Positions 29,055 through 49,664 of a DNA stretch of 64,000 nucleotides are shown here, piece after piece. This DNA is from a virus (Duplodnaviria > Caudoviricetes): positions 1 to 64,000 of IMG/VR virus record IMGVR_UViG_3300037047_000216; one strand, written 5' to 3'. The notes beneath the pieces are model-generated. The model made no database searches. It saw only the letters and a program-made list of their open reading frames with translations, and was not told the origin of the DNA. Both the position numbers and the translations under genes were made by a program. Position 1 is the stretch's first letter, and every line of letters begins with the position of its first letter.

Positions 29055-29528
29055 ATTGAGGGGGACTAAGAGGGCCACCCTGCCCAGAGGACGTTCCCCT
29101 TCGGGATGTCCTCAACATAGTCCCATTACCCCCAGAGCCTCTTGGGGTTCCGTCTCTACGTTAGACGGTGTACGTTTTTGGTGCCCAGTTAAATCTGGGC
29201 CGGTTGTTAACGCACCTCCGGAAAAGCGGTCTCGATTTGTACGTGTTCGAGCCGCACGCCCAATTGGTGATGGGGCTGGGACCCCATTGGTGGCGACCTT
29301 ACGGTCGGGTGAGGAACCACCAAGTCTGCGAAAAGGTACGGGTCTACCCCCGATGGGCACCAGACGACTTAGGTCATCATTGGGTCGTCCGTCCTCTTCT
29401 CCCAGGCGAAAGATGACTCATCCCTGGTTCCGAGTACTTCATTCCGGTCGGAAGCTACCCGTTTCCCTACAGGTTATGACTCCAGTAGGGAAGTTTCTCT
29501 GGTACAGAAAGCATTCTGTACACTCAAG

Positions 29529-29896
29529 AGGAGGCGACGGGAGTCGAACCCGTGTCCGAAGTGTCGTCAACCAAGCGTCTACGTGTGTAGAACCATCGTT
29601 TTGATCTCGGGCACGGGTTTGGCCGGTCCTCGCCATCTCCCGAACCCCTCCCTCTTGTGGGTTTCAACCCGCGGTCTGTGAGGGCCACCCCCGCGGTATC
29701 AAGCTCACCTAAATAACGTTCTCCGGGGCCGATGAGCCCTCCCCTTTGAACGGGCGCGGCCGATTGTTAGGCGGCCATCGCCATGGGTGCTTCGTTGCTG
29801 TTGGCAATTAAGCTGTGTCCTGCTTTTTACGAGGTGCAAGACATCCCCGACACGCTGCTTGACCTCAGTTCACCCCGTCGAAACCGTTACGCCCCC
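29529..29896 (-). ncRNA. ssrA: tmRNA; tag reading frame 29767-29805 encodes ANSNEAPMAMAA*
   Basis: 5' GGGGGCGTAACGGTTTCGAC, 3' GGGTTCGACTCCCGTCGCCTCC, G3:U70, TTAATT before the resume codon. Confidence 0.93.
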
Positions 29897-36742: not shown

Positions 36743-38665
36743 TTACAGCTGGAGGAGCGGGGTGTCCAGGATCTCCTGGATCAGCGTTTTGCGCGGCTGC
36801 GCGGCGGGCGTGGCACGGCGAGCCATCGAAACCGGCGTCGACGCGATGAGGTTGCGCAGCGTGCGGGTGATCGCGTAGGGGTCGCTGAACAGCGACTCCT
36901 CGATCGTGAGGCACGGGATCCCCATCTGCTGGGCCGTCCAGCGGACGATCTCGCCGTTCTCCCCCGGAACTTTCAGGAGCCCGAAAGCTCCGGGCGTCAC
37001 CCCGTAGGTGCGGAACACTTCGATCATCCGCTGGTTGTTGTACTCGCCCTCGTCTCCGACGAACAGGAACAGCGCATCCTCATCCGGACCCGGCTTGTGC
37101 GTCCGGAGCAACACCTCGACGCCAGCGGCGTAACACGTGCTGCCACCCGCGTTGAACCTCGAGAACGCGTTCTCCACGCCCGCCGAGGTCGGTGCCTTCA
37201 GCGTAACTTCGACCCCGATCGAGTCAAACACGCTGATGTGGGTACGGTCGGTCGGGAACCCTCCGAGGAACCGAGTCAAGTACTCTTTGGCCTTCGCGAT
37301 TGCCGTATGCATCGATCCGGACTTGTCGATCACCCAGTAGACACGCATGCCCCGGGTGGCTTCCTCCATCACACGCGCCGTAGCCTTGTCCGCTGCTTCC
37401 TGGAGGGCTGCTACGTTTTCGGTTTTCCGGACACGCAAAGCGACGTTCGCTGCCCGCTGGTTGGTGGCAGTCGCCCGCGCCACGGCCACCTTAGCGGCGA
37501 CCGACGGCACCTTGAGTACGTCCAGTTCCTCCAGCAGCGCGTAGTGGATGATCATGTCCGCGTTGGACATGCACCCGTTCTCGATCGCTGCGACCGTGAT
37601 GGCGCACGTCAGCCCTCCCCGGTAGCCGTTCGCCGGGGTTTTCACGTCCGCAGGCAGCGGGGCCGGGAGCATGCCCACGATGCGCTTCCAGTTCGGCTTG
37701 TCCTTCTCGATCCGGTTGCCGATCTCGGTCTCGGACAGGCCCACCCAGGACTCTGCCACCTTGACAGCGGCTCCGATCGCCAGTGCCCGGCGTCCGTCCG
37801 CGGCCTGAACCTGCTTCCAGCGCAGCACCTCGAAGAACCTCGCCGTGAGCGGTTTGAAACCGATCCGGCGTGCGAGTTCCATGATGGTCGTACGCCACCC
37901 GCTCTTGACGTCGCGCTCCAGTACCTTCGGGTTCAGTTCCCGATTGCGCAGCCACTTCTCGACGGCTTTCGGGTAGCGCCCGAGGAACGCCGACCGCGCG
38001 GAACGGCCGAAACCGAGTTCCCGGTTGATGGCCGCGATGCCCGGCAGTTCGAGGAACTTTCCGACTCGGAGCAGAAGCTTCGCGTCGAATCCGGTTTTTC
38101 CGCGCAGGAGGCACATGGCCTCCCCGACGGTCCTGAAGTCGTCATCGAGGAATTCGACGGTTCCGTCGGCGCCCCGCACGGGCTCTCCTGTCCGATTCTG
38201 AACGAGCAGGAATGCGGCGAGCACGACTTTCAGGTCACGGTGTTCCCGTGCCCATGCCCACGAGGCCCAGTGTGCGACGAACTCATTGTCCGACTTGAAA
38301 ACCTCTGCGACCTGTCGGTACATCCAGATCGCGACCTCCGGGAAGAACCCAGAGGTGCGGTACTGGCCGATGACACGGTTCCCGTCCCTGATGGCCCCGT
38401 CATCTCCGAGGACGCCGATGCGCGTACGGATTTTCCGCATCTTGCCCCGTCCCGCGGGAACCTGTTCCTCGCGGTACACGTTCTTCTGCCCGTCCTCCAG
38501 TTTCCAGGAGCACGGTTGCCACTTCACGCCGATGTTGGCGCTCGGGTCGGGAGTGATGTAGCCTGGACGATTGTGAATCAGGTGGTCGAGGTACTGCGCC
38601 ACCGTGTTGACGATGCGCTCGGCCGGGCCGAGGGTTTCCAGACGTTCCCGAGAGACGGCGACCAT
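36743..38665 (-). CDS. Ro60-like TROVE helical domain plus vWA protein
   Basis: C-terminal VIDKSGSM, GGST, FVGDE MIDAS; helical N-half with DNEFVAHWA, LGFGRSAR..W, GWRTTIMELARRIGFKP resembling Ro60 segments. Confidence 0.65.
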   Translation of the reverse strand: MVAVSRERLETLGPAERIVNTVAQYLDHLIHNRPGYITPDPSANIGVKWQPCSWKLEDGQKNVYREEQVPAGRGKMRKIRTRIGVLGDDGAIRDGNRVIGQYRTSGFFPEVAIWMYRQVAEVFKSDNEFVAHWASWAWAREHRDLKVVLAAFLLVQNRTGEPVRGADGTVEFLDDDFRTVGEAMCLLRGKTGFDAKLLLRVGKFLELPGIAAINRELGFGRSARSAFLGRYPKAVEKWLRNRELNPKVLERDVKSGWRTTIMELARRIGFKPLTARFFEVLRWKQVQAADGRRALAIGAAVKVAESWVGLSETEIGNRIEKDKPNWKRIVGMLPAPLPADVKTPANGYRGGLTCAITVAAIENGCMSNADMIIHYALLEELDVLKVPSVAAKVAVARATATNQRAANVALRVRKTENVAALQEAADKATARVMEEATRGMRVYWVIDKSGSMHTAIAKAKEYLTRFLGGFPTDRTHISVFDSIGVEVTLKAPTSAGVENAFSRFNAGGSTCYAAGVEVLLRTHKPGPDEDALFLFVGDEGEYNNQRMIEVFRTYGVTPGAFGLLKVPGENGEIVRWTAQQMGIPCLTIEESLFSDPYAITRTLRNLIASTPVSMARRATPAAQPRKTLIQEILDTPLLQL

Positions 38666-41000: not shown

Positions 41001-41112
41001 GGACAACGGGTTACGGGACATGGTGCTGGGTCGCCTCCCGTCTTACGTATCCAGGGTCAGTACCTTTTCAGCCCCGTGCCTGAGTCTGCCGGACGACGGG
41101 GCACCCTATTTG

Positions 41113-41434
41113 TGGGCTCAGAGGGACTCGAACCCTCGACCACCCGATTACTTACCGCACCGGGTTTCCCCGGCCCTATTGGTTGCGGTCTGGACCATAT
41201 CTTCACCCGCGAGTAATTACCCGGTAGGGTGCTCGGCGTATGGCCTCTGAGGACTCTCCCTTTTCAGGGGTTGCCTGCTGATTGCCCAATCTTTCCGATT
41301 TTCACTGCCCACTGGTGGCGAGTACGGAAAGCTCTAAGGGTGTTCCAGCATACAGCCGAGTTTTCACCCGTCCCTTTCAGGACGGGGCTCCCATCACCAA
41401 AAGTCGGATGCTCTACCAACTGAGCTATGAGCCC
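41113..41434 (-). tRNA. tRNA-Lys(TTT) interrupted by a group I intron
   Basis: joining exons gives TCCGA-CTTTTAA-TCGGG. Confidence 0.88.
41151..41399 (-). mobile_element. 249-nt group I intron without ORF
   Basis: core-like ATGCTGGAA, AATCAGCAG, CAGAGGCCAT, AAGATATGGTCC; P7 GGCCATA/TATGGTC; terminal G. Confidence 0.88.
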
Positions 41435-41910: not shown

Positions 41911-41988
41911 GGCGGGCGGGGGGAATCGAACCCCCATGTGTCCTAATTACGCTTTCAACAGGGTAGAAGCCTGAGGCGATACGCCCGC
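41911..41988 (-). ncRNA. D-armless tRNA-like RNA (candidate YrlA-like Y RNA)
   Basis: GCGGGCG/CGCCCGC, CAGG-CTTCTAC-CCTG, GTTGAAAGCG, canonical T arm. Confidence 0.6.
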
Positions 41989-41999
41989 ATGAGGTTTTT

Positions 42000-42542
42000 A
42001 TGGACTTTACATGTTACAATTGTGCATCCGTTTTTCAAAGAAACCCTTCGCAAGTCCGTTCTGAAAAAACATTTTGTTCACGGTCTTGCGCTGTCACATA
42101 TCATAACCGCAGGAAACCTAAAAGATCCGTTCAGGGTATTTGTGCAACGTGCGGGACCCCGGTCCCTGTCAGGCTCAGAAAATGTTTGGATTGTCGAGCG
42201 TCCCAAAGTGCCAAAAAACGCTCCCTGACCCTAAAAGAAACGCATGACCGTTTTTCCGTGAAGGGAAAACATCGGTCCTGGGTCAATTCTAACGTCCGCA
42301 ATCTGTGCCGGAGTTGGAACTCGTCACTGCAGAAACAACCTTGTCAGAAATGTGGGTATTCACTTCATGTTGAGTTTTGTCATATCCAACCCATTACGGC
42401 TTTCCCAGAGGAAACGGAGTTGGCCGTGATCAATGACCCCTCTAACATTATTGTGCTCTGCCGAAATTGTCATTGGGAGTTTGATCATGGTCTGTTGAAG
42501 TTAGACGAGATCCAACCTAGAGCACTGCAAGGTACCAACTGA
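42000..42542 (+). CDS. HNH endonuclease with Zn ribbons
   Basis: CQKCG...FCHI..I...NIIVLCRNCHWEFD; AT-rich. Confidence 0.85.
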   Translation: MDFTCYNCASVFQRNPSQVRSEKTFCSRSCAVTYHNRRKPKRSVQGICATCGTPVPVRLRKCLDCRASQSAKKRSLTLKETHDRFSVKGKHRSWVNSNVRNLCRSWNSSLQKQPCQKCGYSLHVEFCHIQPITAFPEETELAVINDPSNIIVLCRNCHWEFDHGLLKLDEIQPRALQGTN

Positions 42543-42558
42543 GCTACAGAGGCACAAG

Positions 42559-47190: not shown

Positions 47191-47416
47191 TGGTGCGGGT
47201 GAGGGGAATCGAACCCCCATATCGGAACGGTGCCTCTCAGGTCTCGCGCTTTCCTACTCGGCCCGTACTGGCTGTTTCGGTGCTTCTGGAGCCCGGCACC
47301 CGTACCCCTTCGGGGGAACGCCACAACGCAGCTTTTTACCCGTTCAGGATACCTCCGACCCTACGTAGGTCTCCGGCTCCGGTTTTCCGGCGCTCATCCA
47401 TTTGAGCTACACCCGC
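47191..47416 (-). ncRNA. 226-nt tRNA-framed RNA with about 150 nt in place of the anticodon loop
   Basis: GCGGGTG/CACCCGC-A-CCA, GCTC/GAGC D arm, T arm, extended stem GGAA..CCGGAGCC/GGCACCGTTCC. Confidence 0.7.
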
Positions 47417-47735: not shown

Positions 47736-48238
47736 TCTCCGGGCTGAACCCGACATCCCTACCCGTGTAGGGAAACTATATCCGAGTCACCATTTGTGAC
47801 AGGTATGGGATGGAATTTTCACCAACAAAAAAAGCCGAACACGTTTTTCGTGCCCGGCTTCTGACCGCTTACGCTCTGGAGAGCTTGATCAGGAGTCCGG
47901 GCGCCCCCTTGGATCGCAGCCGACGTGATTGTCGGCGGGGATCGGGGCGGGCTGCCCCTGCACGCACATCGGCTGACGCGCTTCGACGGCTTTCGCCGTC
48001 TGACGCTTCTGCCGTCTGATCTGTGCCTGCATGGACAACATCACCGAAACTCCATCCTGCTCTGCCGAACTGGCGAGCTTGCCGAAACCTTACTGCACCC
48101 TACGCCTAAGAGTCAAGAACTTTTTTCGCCCCCTTGCTTTTTCTGGAACCCCTTGACGGCATGGGGTTGAAGCGAGATCGAAACCACGCTGCAATCCGAT
48201 ACCATCAAAGGGCGCGAGGAACTGCTCCTCGGTGGTTT

Positions 48239-48266
48239 CTACTCGAAACGTGGGCAAGATGATCCC
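48239..48266 (-). promoter_or_regulatory. phage promoter motif
   Basis: GGGATCATC-N13-GAGTAG. Confidence 0.75.
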
Positions 48267-48283: not shown

Positions 48284-48526
48284 TCACTCCCCGAAGATGG
48301 GGTTGGGGATGTAGCACGCGGGTCGGAAAAACTGGGCGTCACACGAGCGGCACTTCAGAATGACGGTGTGGTATCCGGAAGCGCCCGACGGCAGCCCCCC
48401 TCTTTCCGATGGCGTACAGCGACGGGCTCCGACCCGCACGATGTCGTGCTTGGCGTGCCAGCGGAACCACAGGAACTTGCGCGGGCGATTCGGACACGGA
48501 CCCTTGGACTCATACGCCATGATCAT
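48284..48526 (-). CDS. small Cys-rich hypothetical protein
   Basis: 4-nt overlap with nadD stop. Confidence 0.5.
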   Translation of the reverse strand: MIMAYESKGPCPNRPRKFLWFRWHAKHDIVRVGARRCTPSERGGLPSGASGYHTVILKCRSCDAQFFRPACYIPNPIFGE

Positions 48527-49083
48527 CGCTCCTGGTAGAGGCCATGGTTCTGGATGTAGTCGAGCACCGGCTGCGGGACGAGCCACTGCGCTTGGTCCGT
48601 CCTACCGCTGCGGATCATCTCCCTGATCTCGGTGCTGGAGATAGGAGGCAGGTGCATGCTAAAGGGACGGTCGGAGTTGGTTCCCTCGCGACCGATGACG
48701 AAAAACTCGACCTTCTGCTGGAGTTGCTCCCAGCGCTCCCACCTTTCCCGGTCCCTCCAGTTGTCTTCCCCGATGATGAACGTGAACTTGTGATGGGGGT
48801 AGTCCCTCGCCAGGGAGTCGATCAGGTCGATCGTGAACCGGGTTTTGTAGACGCTCTCCAGCCGGGCGAGCGTGACTTTCGGGTGGCAGCAGGCGCGAAC
48901 GGCGAGTTCCATCATCTCCGCACGCTGCTCGAAGGGGATCAGGGTTTTGCCGAAGGAATGGTCCCAGCAGGGAAGGCACCAGATCTGGTCGAACCCGCCC
49001 ACCGCCAGAGCGTAGTTCATCGCCATCACGTGGGCGACGTGCGGAGGATTGAACGCACCCCCGAAAAGTCCGACTCGAGCCAT
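48523..49083 (-). CDS. nadD: nicotinate-nucleotide adenylyltransferase
   Basis: GLFGGAFNPPHVAH, TIDLI, FIIGED..W.RW, ISSTEIR. Confidence 0.92.
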   Translation of the reverse strand: MARVGLFGGAFNPPHVAHVMAMNYALAVGGFDQIWCLPCWDHSFGKTLIPFEQRAEMMELAVRACCHPKVTLARLESVYKTRFTIDLIDSLARDYPHHKFTFIIGEDNWRDRERWERWEQLQQKVEFFVIGREGTNSDRPFSMHLPPISSTEIREMIRSGRTDQAQWLVPQPVLDYIQNHGLYQER

Positions 49084-49106
49084 GTCACTGGTCCTCCCTA
49101 AGAGGA

Positions 49107-49134
49107 CTACTCTGCGGGTGCGACAGATGATCCC
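49107..49134 (-). promoter_or_regulatory. phage promoter motif upstream of nadD
   Basis: GGGATCATC-N13-GAGTAG. Confidence 0.75.
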
Positions 49135-49136
49135 CA

Positions 49137-49664
49137 TTAGGGGCCGGAGGGGGACTCCGGCGTTGGGGCATGAGGATGTGCCCGGAGGGCTTCGCGGCGG
49201 TAGCAGGCGTCAATCGGATCCCGAGCGAACCAACCCAGATTTTCCAGGCAGATGCACTGGTCGACTCCGGTCTGGGCCAAACACGCCCCATGGTTCCGGA
49301 TCCTGGTCAGTTCCTCTTGTCGGGCTTTTTCTTTTTTGGCATCCGCCTGGGCTTTCTCGACCTGGGTACGCTGAATGACGGTCTGGTACTCCTGTTGCTG
49401 GTTCTTGTCATAGGTCTGAACCAGAGGCGCGAAAACGAACACCGTCAGGACAGACAGCACCGCTCCCGTCACAACGGTCAAGAACACGTTTCGGATGGTC
49501 GAGTGCCGACTACGCCTTGCACGTTCCTCGGCTTCCAGTACCCTGCCCGTGGCCCACTCCATCTTCTGCTGGTAGTCGACAAGCTGACGGCCAGAGATTG
49601 TCCCCAGGCGCTGGCACAGGGGACAATCATTGATCGCATCCGGTTCAATTTTACGCTGTGCCAT
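49137..49664 (-). CDS. hypothetical single-TM coiled-coil protein
   Basis: TM segment then Q/K/E-rich helix. Confidence 0.6.
   Translation of the reverse strand: MAQRKIEPDAINDCPLCQRLGTISGRQLVDYQQKMEWATGRVLEAEERARRSRHSTIRNVFLTVVTGAVLSVLTVFVFAPLVQTYDKNQQQEYQTVIQRTQVEKAQADAKKEKARQEELTRIRNHGACLAQTGVDQCICLENLGWFARDPIDACYRREALRAHPHAPTPESPSGP

What the first reader, a model, noticed from the sequence alone, without database searches (positions are those of the whole stretch)
47191..47416. Full tRNA frame with CCA whose anticodon loop is replaced by a 150-nt structured domain
Seen: complete acceptor (A73, CCA), D arm and T arm; the anticodon stem extends via AAC-C-GG-A-GCC/GGC-A-CC-GTT into a multibranch domain (GACC/GGTC, GCTG/CAGC, CCCC-CGAA-GGGG, GGTGC/GCACC, with a possible crossing GGAGCC/GGCTCC pairing). 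No group I or II core and no restorable anticodon were found. Architecture recalls tmRNA (tRNA-like domain plus cargo) but keeps the D stem and lacks G3:U70. Inference: an aminoacylatable carrier or scaffold RNA, an inverted Y RNA, or a new self-splicing/cleaving class.
Basis: partly seen in the sequence, partly recalled or inferred. Interest (0 to 1): 0.75.

Follow-up and report, generated by a model that had tools for sequence, protein, structure and literature searches.

The report
Anticodon-less tRNA-shaped phage RNA
This 226-base gene in a giant phage's row of tRNA genes makes a tRNA-shaped RNA that cannot read codons. It is a divergent member of a conserved phage RNA family that no searched database or paper describes and whose job is still unknown.

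Summary
The tRNA frame is real: minus strand 47416-47191, 7-bp acceptor, D arm, canonical T arm, A73 and an encoded CCA. It is not an orphan. A covariance model built only from four related elements in other huge-phage contigs hits exactly these coordinates (48.8 bits, E 4e-12); the neighbouring true tRNA scores 10.9 bits. About 20 distinct members were collected. None matches an Rfam 15 family.

A short hairpin (H1) with a near-invariant loop, AAAA(A)CGGA, sits where the anticodon arm should be. The large domain is inserted 3' of H1, in the variable-arm position, and is closed by its own helix. In most members the H1 loop pairs with a strand of that domain (a pseudoknot).

The "CCG anticodon plus 150-nt intron" that ARAGORN reports is part of the conserved loop, so it is an artefact. 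Group I intron, tmRNA and a broken tRNA gene (insertion pseudogene) are rejected.

The window's copy is a reduced, divergent member. Function is unknown. A Y-RNA-like partnership with Ro60-type proteins is the leading lead but is unproven.

The scan had already met this family on other DNA (four earlier follow-ups).

The parts
47410..47416 (-). Acceptor stem, 5' strand (gene positions 1-7, GCGGGUG)
   Evidence: Pairs 7/7 with 47195-47201. In the family all 7 pairs show changes on both sides and 100% of cells are paired.
47392..47407 (-). D arm (positions 10-25), with G18 G19 in the loop
   Evidence: Read. A D arm is present in all members.
47373..47390 (-). H1 hairpin at the anticodon-arm position (27-44): stem CCGG/CCGG, loop AAAACCGGAG
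   Evidence: The stem covaries in nearly every member. The loop consensus is AAAA(A)CGGA(G); the window differs from AAAAACGGAG by one base.
47360..47371 (-). H2 small hairpin (about positions 46-57; CCU-ACGU-AGG, or GACC/GGUC in another register)
   Evidence: A short covarying hairpin lies between H1 and the closing helix in the long-form members.
47353..47359 (-). Closing helix of the inserted domain, 5' strand (58-64, GUCGGAG)
   Evidence: Pairs with 190-196 (UUCCGAU). The equivalent helix has a different sequence in almost every member.
47294..47352 (-). Variable inner region (65-123), including the CCCC-CGAA-GGGG hairpin
   Evidence: This region is not alignable across subgroups. There is no comparative support for its fold.
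47278..47293 (-). Degenerate counterpart (124-139, GGCUCCAGAAGCACCG) of the family's invariant strand GGUUGCGGAUGCACCG
   Evidence: MAFFT and the covariance model both align it there. The exact GCGGAUGC is absent in the window.
47245..47256 (-). Conserved strand UAGGAAAGCGCG (161-172), counterpart of the family's CAGGGAAGCGCG
   Evidence: AAGCGCG is invariant across alignments A2 and A6.
47221..47231 (-). Closing helix 3' strand (190-196, UUCCGAU), overlapped by CCGUU (187-191), a possible pseudoknot partner of the H1 loop
   Evidence: Closing helix. The pseudoknot is inferred by analogy with the family. It is not established for this copy.
47202..47218 (-). T arm (199-215), GGGGG-UUCGAUU-CCCCU
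   Evidence: In the family 100% of cells are paired and 4 of 5 pairs covary.
47191..47201 (-). Acceptor 3' strand CACCCGC (216-222), discriminator A73 and encoded CCA
   Evidence: CCA is encoded in 5 of 22 members; the discriminator is A in 14, G in 6 and U in 2.

Best explanation
The gene encodes a non-decoding, tRNA-shaped RNA. It is a divergent, reduced member of a conserved phage RNA family.

Shown:
- The acceptor, D and T arms are kept.
- A hairpin with a fixed loop replaces the anticodon arm.
- A 100-200-nt domain is inserted in the variable-arm position.
- In most members a strand of that domain pairs with the hairpin loop, so the anticodon end is locked.

Inferred:
- The RNA lies within a few bases of true tRNA genes, so it is probably transcribed with the array and cut out by RNase P and the 3' tRNA-processing enzymes. 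The tRNA frame would then serve for maturation and nuclease resistance.
- The locked domain is the working part, most likely a binding module for a protein.
- The single most likely partner, at about one chance in three, is a Ro60-type protein. That would make this a Y-RNA-like adaptor with the tRNA ends left open.
- This particular copy lacks several core elements. It may work differently or be decaying.
For: Homology:
- Model R1 was built without the window. It hits 47191-47416(-) over its full length at 48.8 bits, E 4e-12. The adjacent tRNA-Lys scores 10.9 bits under the same model.
- 23 matches at E < 1e-8 were found in phage contigs.

Structure:
- On a sequence-only alignment of 14 members, 84.5% of cells pair against 60% in shuffles (0 of 500 shuffles reach the observed value). 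28 of 34 pairs change on both sides. Slid controls give 41-50%.
- The H1 and closing-helix stems differ in sequence in almost every member.
- The pseudoknot AAACG/CGUUU has compensatory variants: GAAAAGCG/CGCUUUUC, AAAACG/CGUUUU and ACUG/CAGU.

Context:
- 13 of 22 members have a same-strand tRNA within 15 nt.

Ro60 lead:
- The window's 640-aa vWA protein has Ro60 structures as its top Foldseek matches.
- 10 of 22 motif-positive records carry a Ro60-type gene.
- YrlA is a precedent for a tRNA mimic that is cut by RNase P and receives CCA (PMC4201824).
Against: - No expression data could be obtained.
- The window's copy lacks the exact GCGGAUGC strand, the three-way junction with the GUAA hairpin, and the CGUUU pseudoknot partner.
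- Only 8 of 71 records carrying the Ro60-like gene hold the RNA.
- Three complete motif-positive genomes have no Ro60-type gene.
- The YrlA model and its GNCGAAN0-1G motif do not fit.
- VIA-align confirmed only the vWA domain of the protein.
Confidence: 0.62

Rival explanations
1. It is an intron-bearing tRNA-Arg(CCG). A 150-nt intron in the anticodon loop is removed to give a decoding tRNA.
For:
- The flanks CGGAA/UUCCG can pair.
- The D loop has A20 and the discriminator is A73, as in Arg tRNAs.
- The same window holds a true group I intron in tRNA-Lys(UUU).
Against: - The 'anticodon' lies inside the family's conserved loop.
- ARAGORN gives other 'anticodons' for homologues: Asn for L094 and Lys for L063.
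- Flank pairing is not conserved in the family.
- The spliced loop would be AACCGGA, with A33 and a 2-nt linker at position 26.
- There is no group I match at E <= 10, and no U before the proposed 5' splice site.
- No RtcB or splicing endonuclease was found in the 74 kb.
- An intact tRNA-Arg(CCG) lies about 260 nt away.
Confidence: 0.03
2. It is a decaying, non-functional copy of the family: an RNA pseudogene that is still transcribed and processed.
For: - It has one of the two lowest model scores in the family, with L115.
- Conserved core elements are missing.
- The insert is no more stable than shuffled sequence.
- The array holds other tRNA fragments and HNH genes.
Against: - All frame stems, H1 and the 7-bp closing helix are perfectly paired, and the H1 loop differs from the consensus by one base.
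- L115 shows a second member with a relocated pseudoknot partner, so divergent working subtypes may exist.
Confidence: 0.2
3. It is an aminoacylated RNA that acts on the ribosome or in a transfer reaction, in the manner of tmRNA or a carrier.
For: - An intact acceptor/T-arm minihelix with A73 and encoded CCA.
- Huge phages carry many translation genes (my own knowledge).
Against: - Acceptor stems and discriminators are not conserved, so there is no shared identity set, and G3:U70 is absent.
- CCA is encoded in only 5 of 22 members.
- There is no tmRNA model match beyond the T arm.
- The phage has its own tmRNA.
Confidence: 0.07
4. The conserved core is a ribozyme or a small-molecule aptamer carried on a tRNA scaffold.
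For: - Near-invariant strands (GGUUGCGGAUGCACCGG, CAGGGAAGCGCGUUU) together with a pseudoknot and a three-way junction are typical of catalytic or ligand-binding cores.
Against: - No match to any ribozyme or riboswitch family in Rfam 15.
- No conserved gene context.
- The window's copy lacks most of the core.
Confidence: 0.08

Closest known systems
YrlA-type bacterial and phage Y RNAs (Rfam RF02553; Chen et al. 2014, PMC4201824)
   Same: Non-decoding RNAs with tRNA-like D and T arms and an acceptor stem. M. smegmatis YrlA is cut by RNase P and receives CCA. They are often encoded near Ro60 genes, including in phages.
   Different: YrlA has its ends on the anticodon side and a closed acceptor hairpin; here the ends are at the acceptor. 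The Ro60-binding motif GNCGAAN0-1G is not conserved. RF02553 scores only 18-37 bits on tRNA parts, against a gathering score of 69. Linkage to Ro60 genes is partial.
Phage T4 RNAC and RNAD, small stable RNAs of the T4 tRNA region
   Same: Small RNAs transcribed from a phage tRNA region, with unknown role (PMC3014915).
   Different: No sequence comparison was made here. The resemblance is one of context only.
Class II tRNAs with a long variable arm
   Same: An extra helix emerges between the anticodon arm and the T arm.
   Different: Here the extra arm is 100-200 nt, and the anticodon loop is replaced by a fixed 8-11-nt loop that pairs with that arm. RF00005 and default ARAGORN do not detect the gene.
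tmRNA (RF00023)
   Same: A tRNA-like acceptor/T-arm domain joined to a large pseudoknotted body.
   Different: This RNA has a true D stem, no G3:U70 and no tag reading frame, and only the T arm matches the model (9-15 bits). The phage has a canonical tmRNA at 29526-29896.
Group I intron in a tRNA anticodon loop (for example tRNA-Lys(UUU) in this window)
   Same: A tRNA frame interrupted by a structured insert.
   Different: The tRNA-Lys intron scores 56.5 bits on RF00028 and leaves a normal anticodon loop. The candidate has no RF00028 match at E <= 10 and no restorable loop.

Membership tests
   48.8 bits, E 4e-12, model positions 1-269. The neighbouring tRNA scores 10.9 bits.
   CCGG[AAAACCGGAG]CCGG; one base differs from AAAAACGGAG.
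   GUCGGAG/UUCCGAU, with linker AU.
   The window has CGAGA at that place. A relocated partner, CCGUU at 187-191, is possible but unproven.
   The exact strand is absent and only a degenerate counterpart is present. No P_y or P_a helices were found.
Canonical tRNA (RF00005) | 5-bp anticodon stem with a 7-nt loop and U33 | tested here: not met
   No RF00005 match. ARAGORN's forced solution has A33 and a 2-nt linker.
Group I intron (RF00028) | Conserved P3-P8 catalytic core and a U at the 5' splice site | tested here: not met
   No match at E <= 10 in a 401-nt search. There is no U between the D arm and position 50.
tmRNA (RF00023) | G3:U70, no D stem, and a tag reading frame with pseudoknots | tested here: not met
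   G3:C70 and a 4-bp D stem. Only 9.4 bits, on the T arm.
YrlA / Y RNA (RF02553) | Ro60-binding motif GNCGAAN0-1G in a terminal stem | tested here: not met
   No occurrence in the window, and only scattered non-homologous occurrences in the family.
YrlA / Y RNA (RF02553) | Encoded beside a Ro60 gene | tested here: inconclusive
   A Ro60-like gene lies 8.5 kb downstream on the same strand. 10 of 22 motif-positive records have a Ro60-type gene, and 8 of 71 Ro60-like records have the RNA.
YrlA / Y RNA (RF02553) | Binding to Ro60/Rsr | not testable with these tools
   Needs co-immunoprecipitation or a gel-shift assay.

The most novel reading that the evidence does not exclude
The family is a new class of Y-like or effector RNA in which an open-ended, possibly chargeable tRNA frame carries a pseudoknot-locked catalytic or ligand-sensing core. 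Phages would use it to redirect host RNA quality control or translation.
Probability: 0.12. Interest if true: 0.85.

Novelty: new variant of a known kind. Interest (0 to 1): 0.6.

Why it matters
Small stable tRNA-like RNAs have been known in phage tRNA clusters since T4 (RNAC and RNAD), and their role is still unknown. This finding belongs to a family with about 20 collected members, strong covariation and a defined architecture: a tRNA frame, a locked anticodon-position loop and a conserved core. No Rfam 15 family matches any member tested.

That gives a concrete, testable RNA for asking what such mimics do. It also gives a possible unpermuted counterpart of bacterial Y RNAs.

On the practical side, it shows that tRNA finders run with introns allowed will mis-annotate these genes as intron-bearing tRNAs.

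Tried and rejected
Searches that found no homologue:
- Exact-pattern scans for near relatives found none: viral contigs, metagenome contigs and genome contigs (where only the 19-mer itself matched, by chance).
- blastn against cultured phages found only the tRNA parts. A canonical member gave no match at all.
- The neighbouring proteins NadD and the 929-aa protein gave no close relatives.
- The insert has no paralogue within the contig.

Tools that gave no result:
There is therefore no expression or splicing evidence.

Tests with negative results:
- Thermodynamic stability of the insert is not significant.
- No RtcB, tRNA splicing endonuclease or Pfam TROVE domain in the 74 kb.
- The vWA protein has no sequence match in the PDB.
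- VIA-align's list was filled by vWA domains, so the TROVE-like N-terminal part was barely tested.
- No conserved protein neighbour of the RNA.
- Matches of 22-31 bits to model R1 were adjacent tRNA pairs or another kind of tRNA-like RNA.
- GAGTAG inside the insert is not part of the phage promoter motif, because no GGGATCAT lies upstream.
- Literature searches found no description of this family.

Full report
SETTING. The window is the first 64 kb of a 74-kb IMG/VR virus record that CheckV rates 14% complete, so it is a fragment of a huge phage. It holds 41 tRNA genes, a canonical tmRNA (149 bits) and a group I intron (56.5 bits) inside tRNA-Lys(UUU). A phage promoter motif, GGGATCAT-N13-15-GAGTAG, occurs 19 times against 0.01 expected. 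The candidate lies on the minus strand in a tight run His-Asn-candidate-Lys-Glu-Arg-Arg-Ile-Met-Pro-Gln-Cys. Upstream of this run are a terminator-like hairpin (47862-47830) and then a sigma-70-like promoter (47802-47775).

THE OBSERVATION. On the minus strand, 47416 to 47191 reads as a perfect 7-bp acceptor, U8 A9, a 4-bp D arm with G18 G19, about 170 nt, a canonical T arm, A73 and CCA. Spacers to the flanking tRNAs are 6 and 10 nt. Default ARAGORN and Rfam tRNA do not call it. No Rfam family matches the insert even at E <= 10; the YrlA hit of 24.6 bits spans the T arm of tRNA-Asn and the candidate's D arm, so it is an artefact. The fold energy of the insert is no better than that of shuffles (z = +0.45; whole gene z = -1.37). 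With introns allowed, ARAGORN calls tRNA-Arg(CCG) with a 150-nt intron, but the loop would be AACCGGA (A33) and position 26 would need a 2-nt linker. The frame is most similar to the phage's own tRNA-Gly(GCC): the 5' acceptor strand is identical and the T arm matches at 16 of 17 positions.

FINDING RELATIVES. Exact-pattern scans and neighbouring proteins found nothing. The breakthrough came from the 640-aa vWA protein at 36743-38665. It has more than 1,200 homologues, the 120 best listed at 50-61% identity, on contigs of up to about 536 kb. An alignment of it fetched 72 loci from huge-phage contigs of up to about 620 kb. In these loci nhmmer found elements related to the candidate in L094, then L061, L054 and L063. 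A covariance model (R1) was built from those four only. It hit the window at exactly 47191-47416(-) over its full length, at 48.8 bits and E 4e-12. Under the same model the adjacent tRNA-Lys scores 10.9 bits. Scans of the whole records found family members in 8 of 71 related records. The weaker hits of 22-31 bits were tRNA pairs or another tRNA-like type. A motif scan (TTGCGGATGCAC, a 45-70-nt gap, GGAAGCGC) added 16 further viral contigs. In all, 23 matches passed E < 1e-8. No member overlaps any Rfam 15 match apart from a weak T-arm hit to tmRNA.

ARCHITECTURE FROM COVARIATION.
1. Every member has a different, fully Watson-Crick 7-bp acceptor stem and a canonical T arm.
2. Directly after the D arm lies hairpin H1. 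Its 3-6-bp stem differs in almost every member (for example CAGU/ACUG, AUCGU/ACGGU, UACCG/CGGUA, CACCG/CGGUG, CUGG/CCAG and GCCC/GGGC; the window has CCGG/CCGG). Its 8-13-nt loop (8-11 nt in all members but one) is nearly constant, AAAA(A)CGGA(G). The window's AAAACCGGAG is one base from AAAAACGGAG.
3. After an optional small hairpin H2, a long-range helix closes the inserted domain and ends 2-6 nt before the T stem. Its sequence again differs in each member; the window has GUCGGAG/UUCCGAU.
4. Inside the domain are two near-invariant strands (GGUUGCGGAUGCACCGG and CAGGGAAGCGCGUUU) and a three-way junction. Its helices covary, for example GCUGUG/CACAGC, CUCUUG/CAAGGG, GCCAUG/CAUGGC and ACAAUG/CAUUGU. 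One arm ends in a GUAA tetraloop.
5. In about 18 of 22 members the H1 loop can pair with CGUUU, five bases into the AAGCGC strand. Compensatory variants occur at the same place: GAAAAGCG/CGCUUUUC in the second L146 copy, AAAACG/CGUUUU in L144 and ACUG/CAGU in L129.

On a MAFFT alignment that was not fitted to any structure, 84.5% of cells pair against 60% in shuffles (0 of 500). 28 of 34 pairs show changes on both sides. Sliding the partners gives 41-50%.

WHAT THIS EXCLUDES. The loop at the anticodon position is the same in members with quite different acceptor stems, so it is not an anticodon. ARAGORN's 'CCG' is part of that loop, and for homologues ARAGORN proposes Asn (L094) or Lys (L063). 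Pairing between the H1 5' strand and the region before the T arm, which a spliced tRNA would need, is good only in the window and L144, where repeated CCGGA or AUCG words create it. No RtcB or splicing endonuclease is present in the 74 kb. Intron, tmRNA and broken-tRNA readings are therefore rejected. The large domain sits in the variable-arm position, not in the anticodon loop.

THE WINDOW'S COPY. It keeps the frame, H1, H2, the closing helix and the AAGCGCG strand. It has only a degenerate counterpart of GGUUGCGGAUGCACCG. It lacks the three-way junction. It has CGAGA where the pseudoknot partner should be. L115 shows a similarly relocated partner just before its T arm. Whether this is a working subtype or decay cannot be decided without closer relatives. 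It is the only copy in the 74 kb.

HOW IT MAY WORK. Thirteen of 22 members have a same-strand tRNA within 15 nt. Maturation by the tRNA-processing enzymes is therefore the natural inference; it has not been shown. Acceptor stems and discriminators are not conserved, and CCA is encoded in only 5 of 22 members. This argues against a shared aminoacylation identity. The conserved, locked domain is most simply read as a binding module.

The best lead for a partner is Ro60.
- The AlphaFold model of the 640-aa protein (pLDDT 81.8) has Ro60 and Rsr structures as its top Foldseek matches over about 560 columns, including a phage Ro60. VIA-align confirmed only the vWA domain, and Pfam TROVE does not match.
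- Of the 22 motif-positive records, 6 carry this protein and 4 others carry a Pfam-TROVE ORF on the same strand, 2-15 kb from the RNA.
- In L061, L063 and L054 the RNA lies 0.15-1.6 kb upstream of the gene.
- Bacterial YrlA Y RNAs mimic tRNA, and M. smegmatis YrlA is cut by RNase P and receives CCA (PMC4201824).
- Jumbo phages are known to carry TROVE proteins. In cellular organisms such proteins work with a tRNA-like partner RNA (PMC7824862).

Against this lead:
- 63 of 71 records with the Ro60-like gene lack the RNA.
- Three complete motif-positive genomes have no Ro60-type gene.
- The YrlA motif GNCGAAN0-1G is not conserved.
- tRNA arrays flank the Ro60-like gene in this clade, so proximity may be incidental.

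EARLIER SCAN NOTES. After my own analysis, a look-up by sequence showed that the scan had met this family four times on other DNA, including the L061 element itself. Those follow-ups reached similar conclusions: a tRNA-shaped RNA with the anticodon position locked, and YrlA as the closest known family. They are AI notes. I used them as leads and checked the pseudoknot, the Rfam absence and the Ro60 linkage myself.

VERDICT. The feature is real and conserved. It is a divergent member of a non-decoding tRNA-shaped RNA family that Rfam 15 and the searched literature do not describe. Its structural reading and its intron and tmRNA ideas are not. Its scaffold idea stands, and its 'inverted Y RNA' idea stays open.

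Noticed in passing
window 41112-41434 (-): tRNA-Lys(UUU) is interrupted by a 249-nt group I intron (RF00028, 56.5 bits). Removing it restores a normal CUUUUAA anticodon loop.
   Followed up: partly
window 36743-38665 (-): A 640-aa protein with a C-terminal vWA/MIDAS domain is conserved at 50-61% identity among the best of more than 1,200 homologues from metagenomes and in 72 huge-phage loci. Its AlphaFold model has Ro60/Rsr structures as top Foldseek matches, although Pfam TROVE misses it. The N-terminal part was not confirmed by VIA-align.
   Followed up: partly
window 41912-41990 (-) and 42533-42556 (-), with ORF 42000-42542 (+): A tRNA-Gly-like element that ARAGORN does not call (acceptor GCGGGCG/CGCCCGC, canonical T arm, odd middle) and a lone tRNA 5' half flank an HNH endonuclease ORF on the opposite strand. 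This points to tRNA gene turnover in the array.
   Followed up: no
window, 19 sites (for example 48239-48266 -): The bipartite motif GGGATCAT-N13-15-GAGTAG occurs 19 times against 0.01 expected, mostly on the minus strand. It looks like a phage-specific promoter.
   Followed up: partly
window 47830-47862 (-) and 47775-47802 (-): A 14-pair terminator-like hairpin with a T run is followed by a sigma-70-like promoter just upstream of the His-to-Cys tRNA run.
   Followed up: no
L123:1501-1634, L124:1501-1648 and L126:1501-1637 (minus strand of each locus): Related huge phages carry a different 134-148-nt tRNA-like RNA type. It has a 7-nt loop without U33, a long extra arm and shared CAACA and AUACAAGC words before the T arm.
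   Followed up: no
L146:7548-7790 (-) and L146:2157-2396 (-): One viral contig carries two diverged copies of the family. The second has an 8-bp version of the loop-to-domain pseudoknot.
   Followed up: partly
window 48523-49137 (-): The NadD-like gene has no close relative in any collection searched. The best non-self hits are 42% identical; among the next-best (38-39%) are Myxococcota-type sequences (Anaeromyxobacteraceae, Deltaproteobacteria). This is a weak hint at the host.
   Followed up: no
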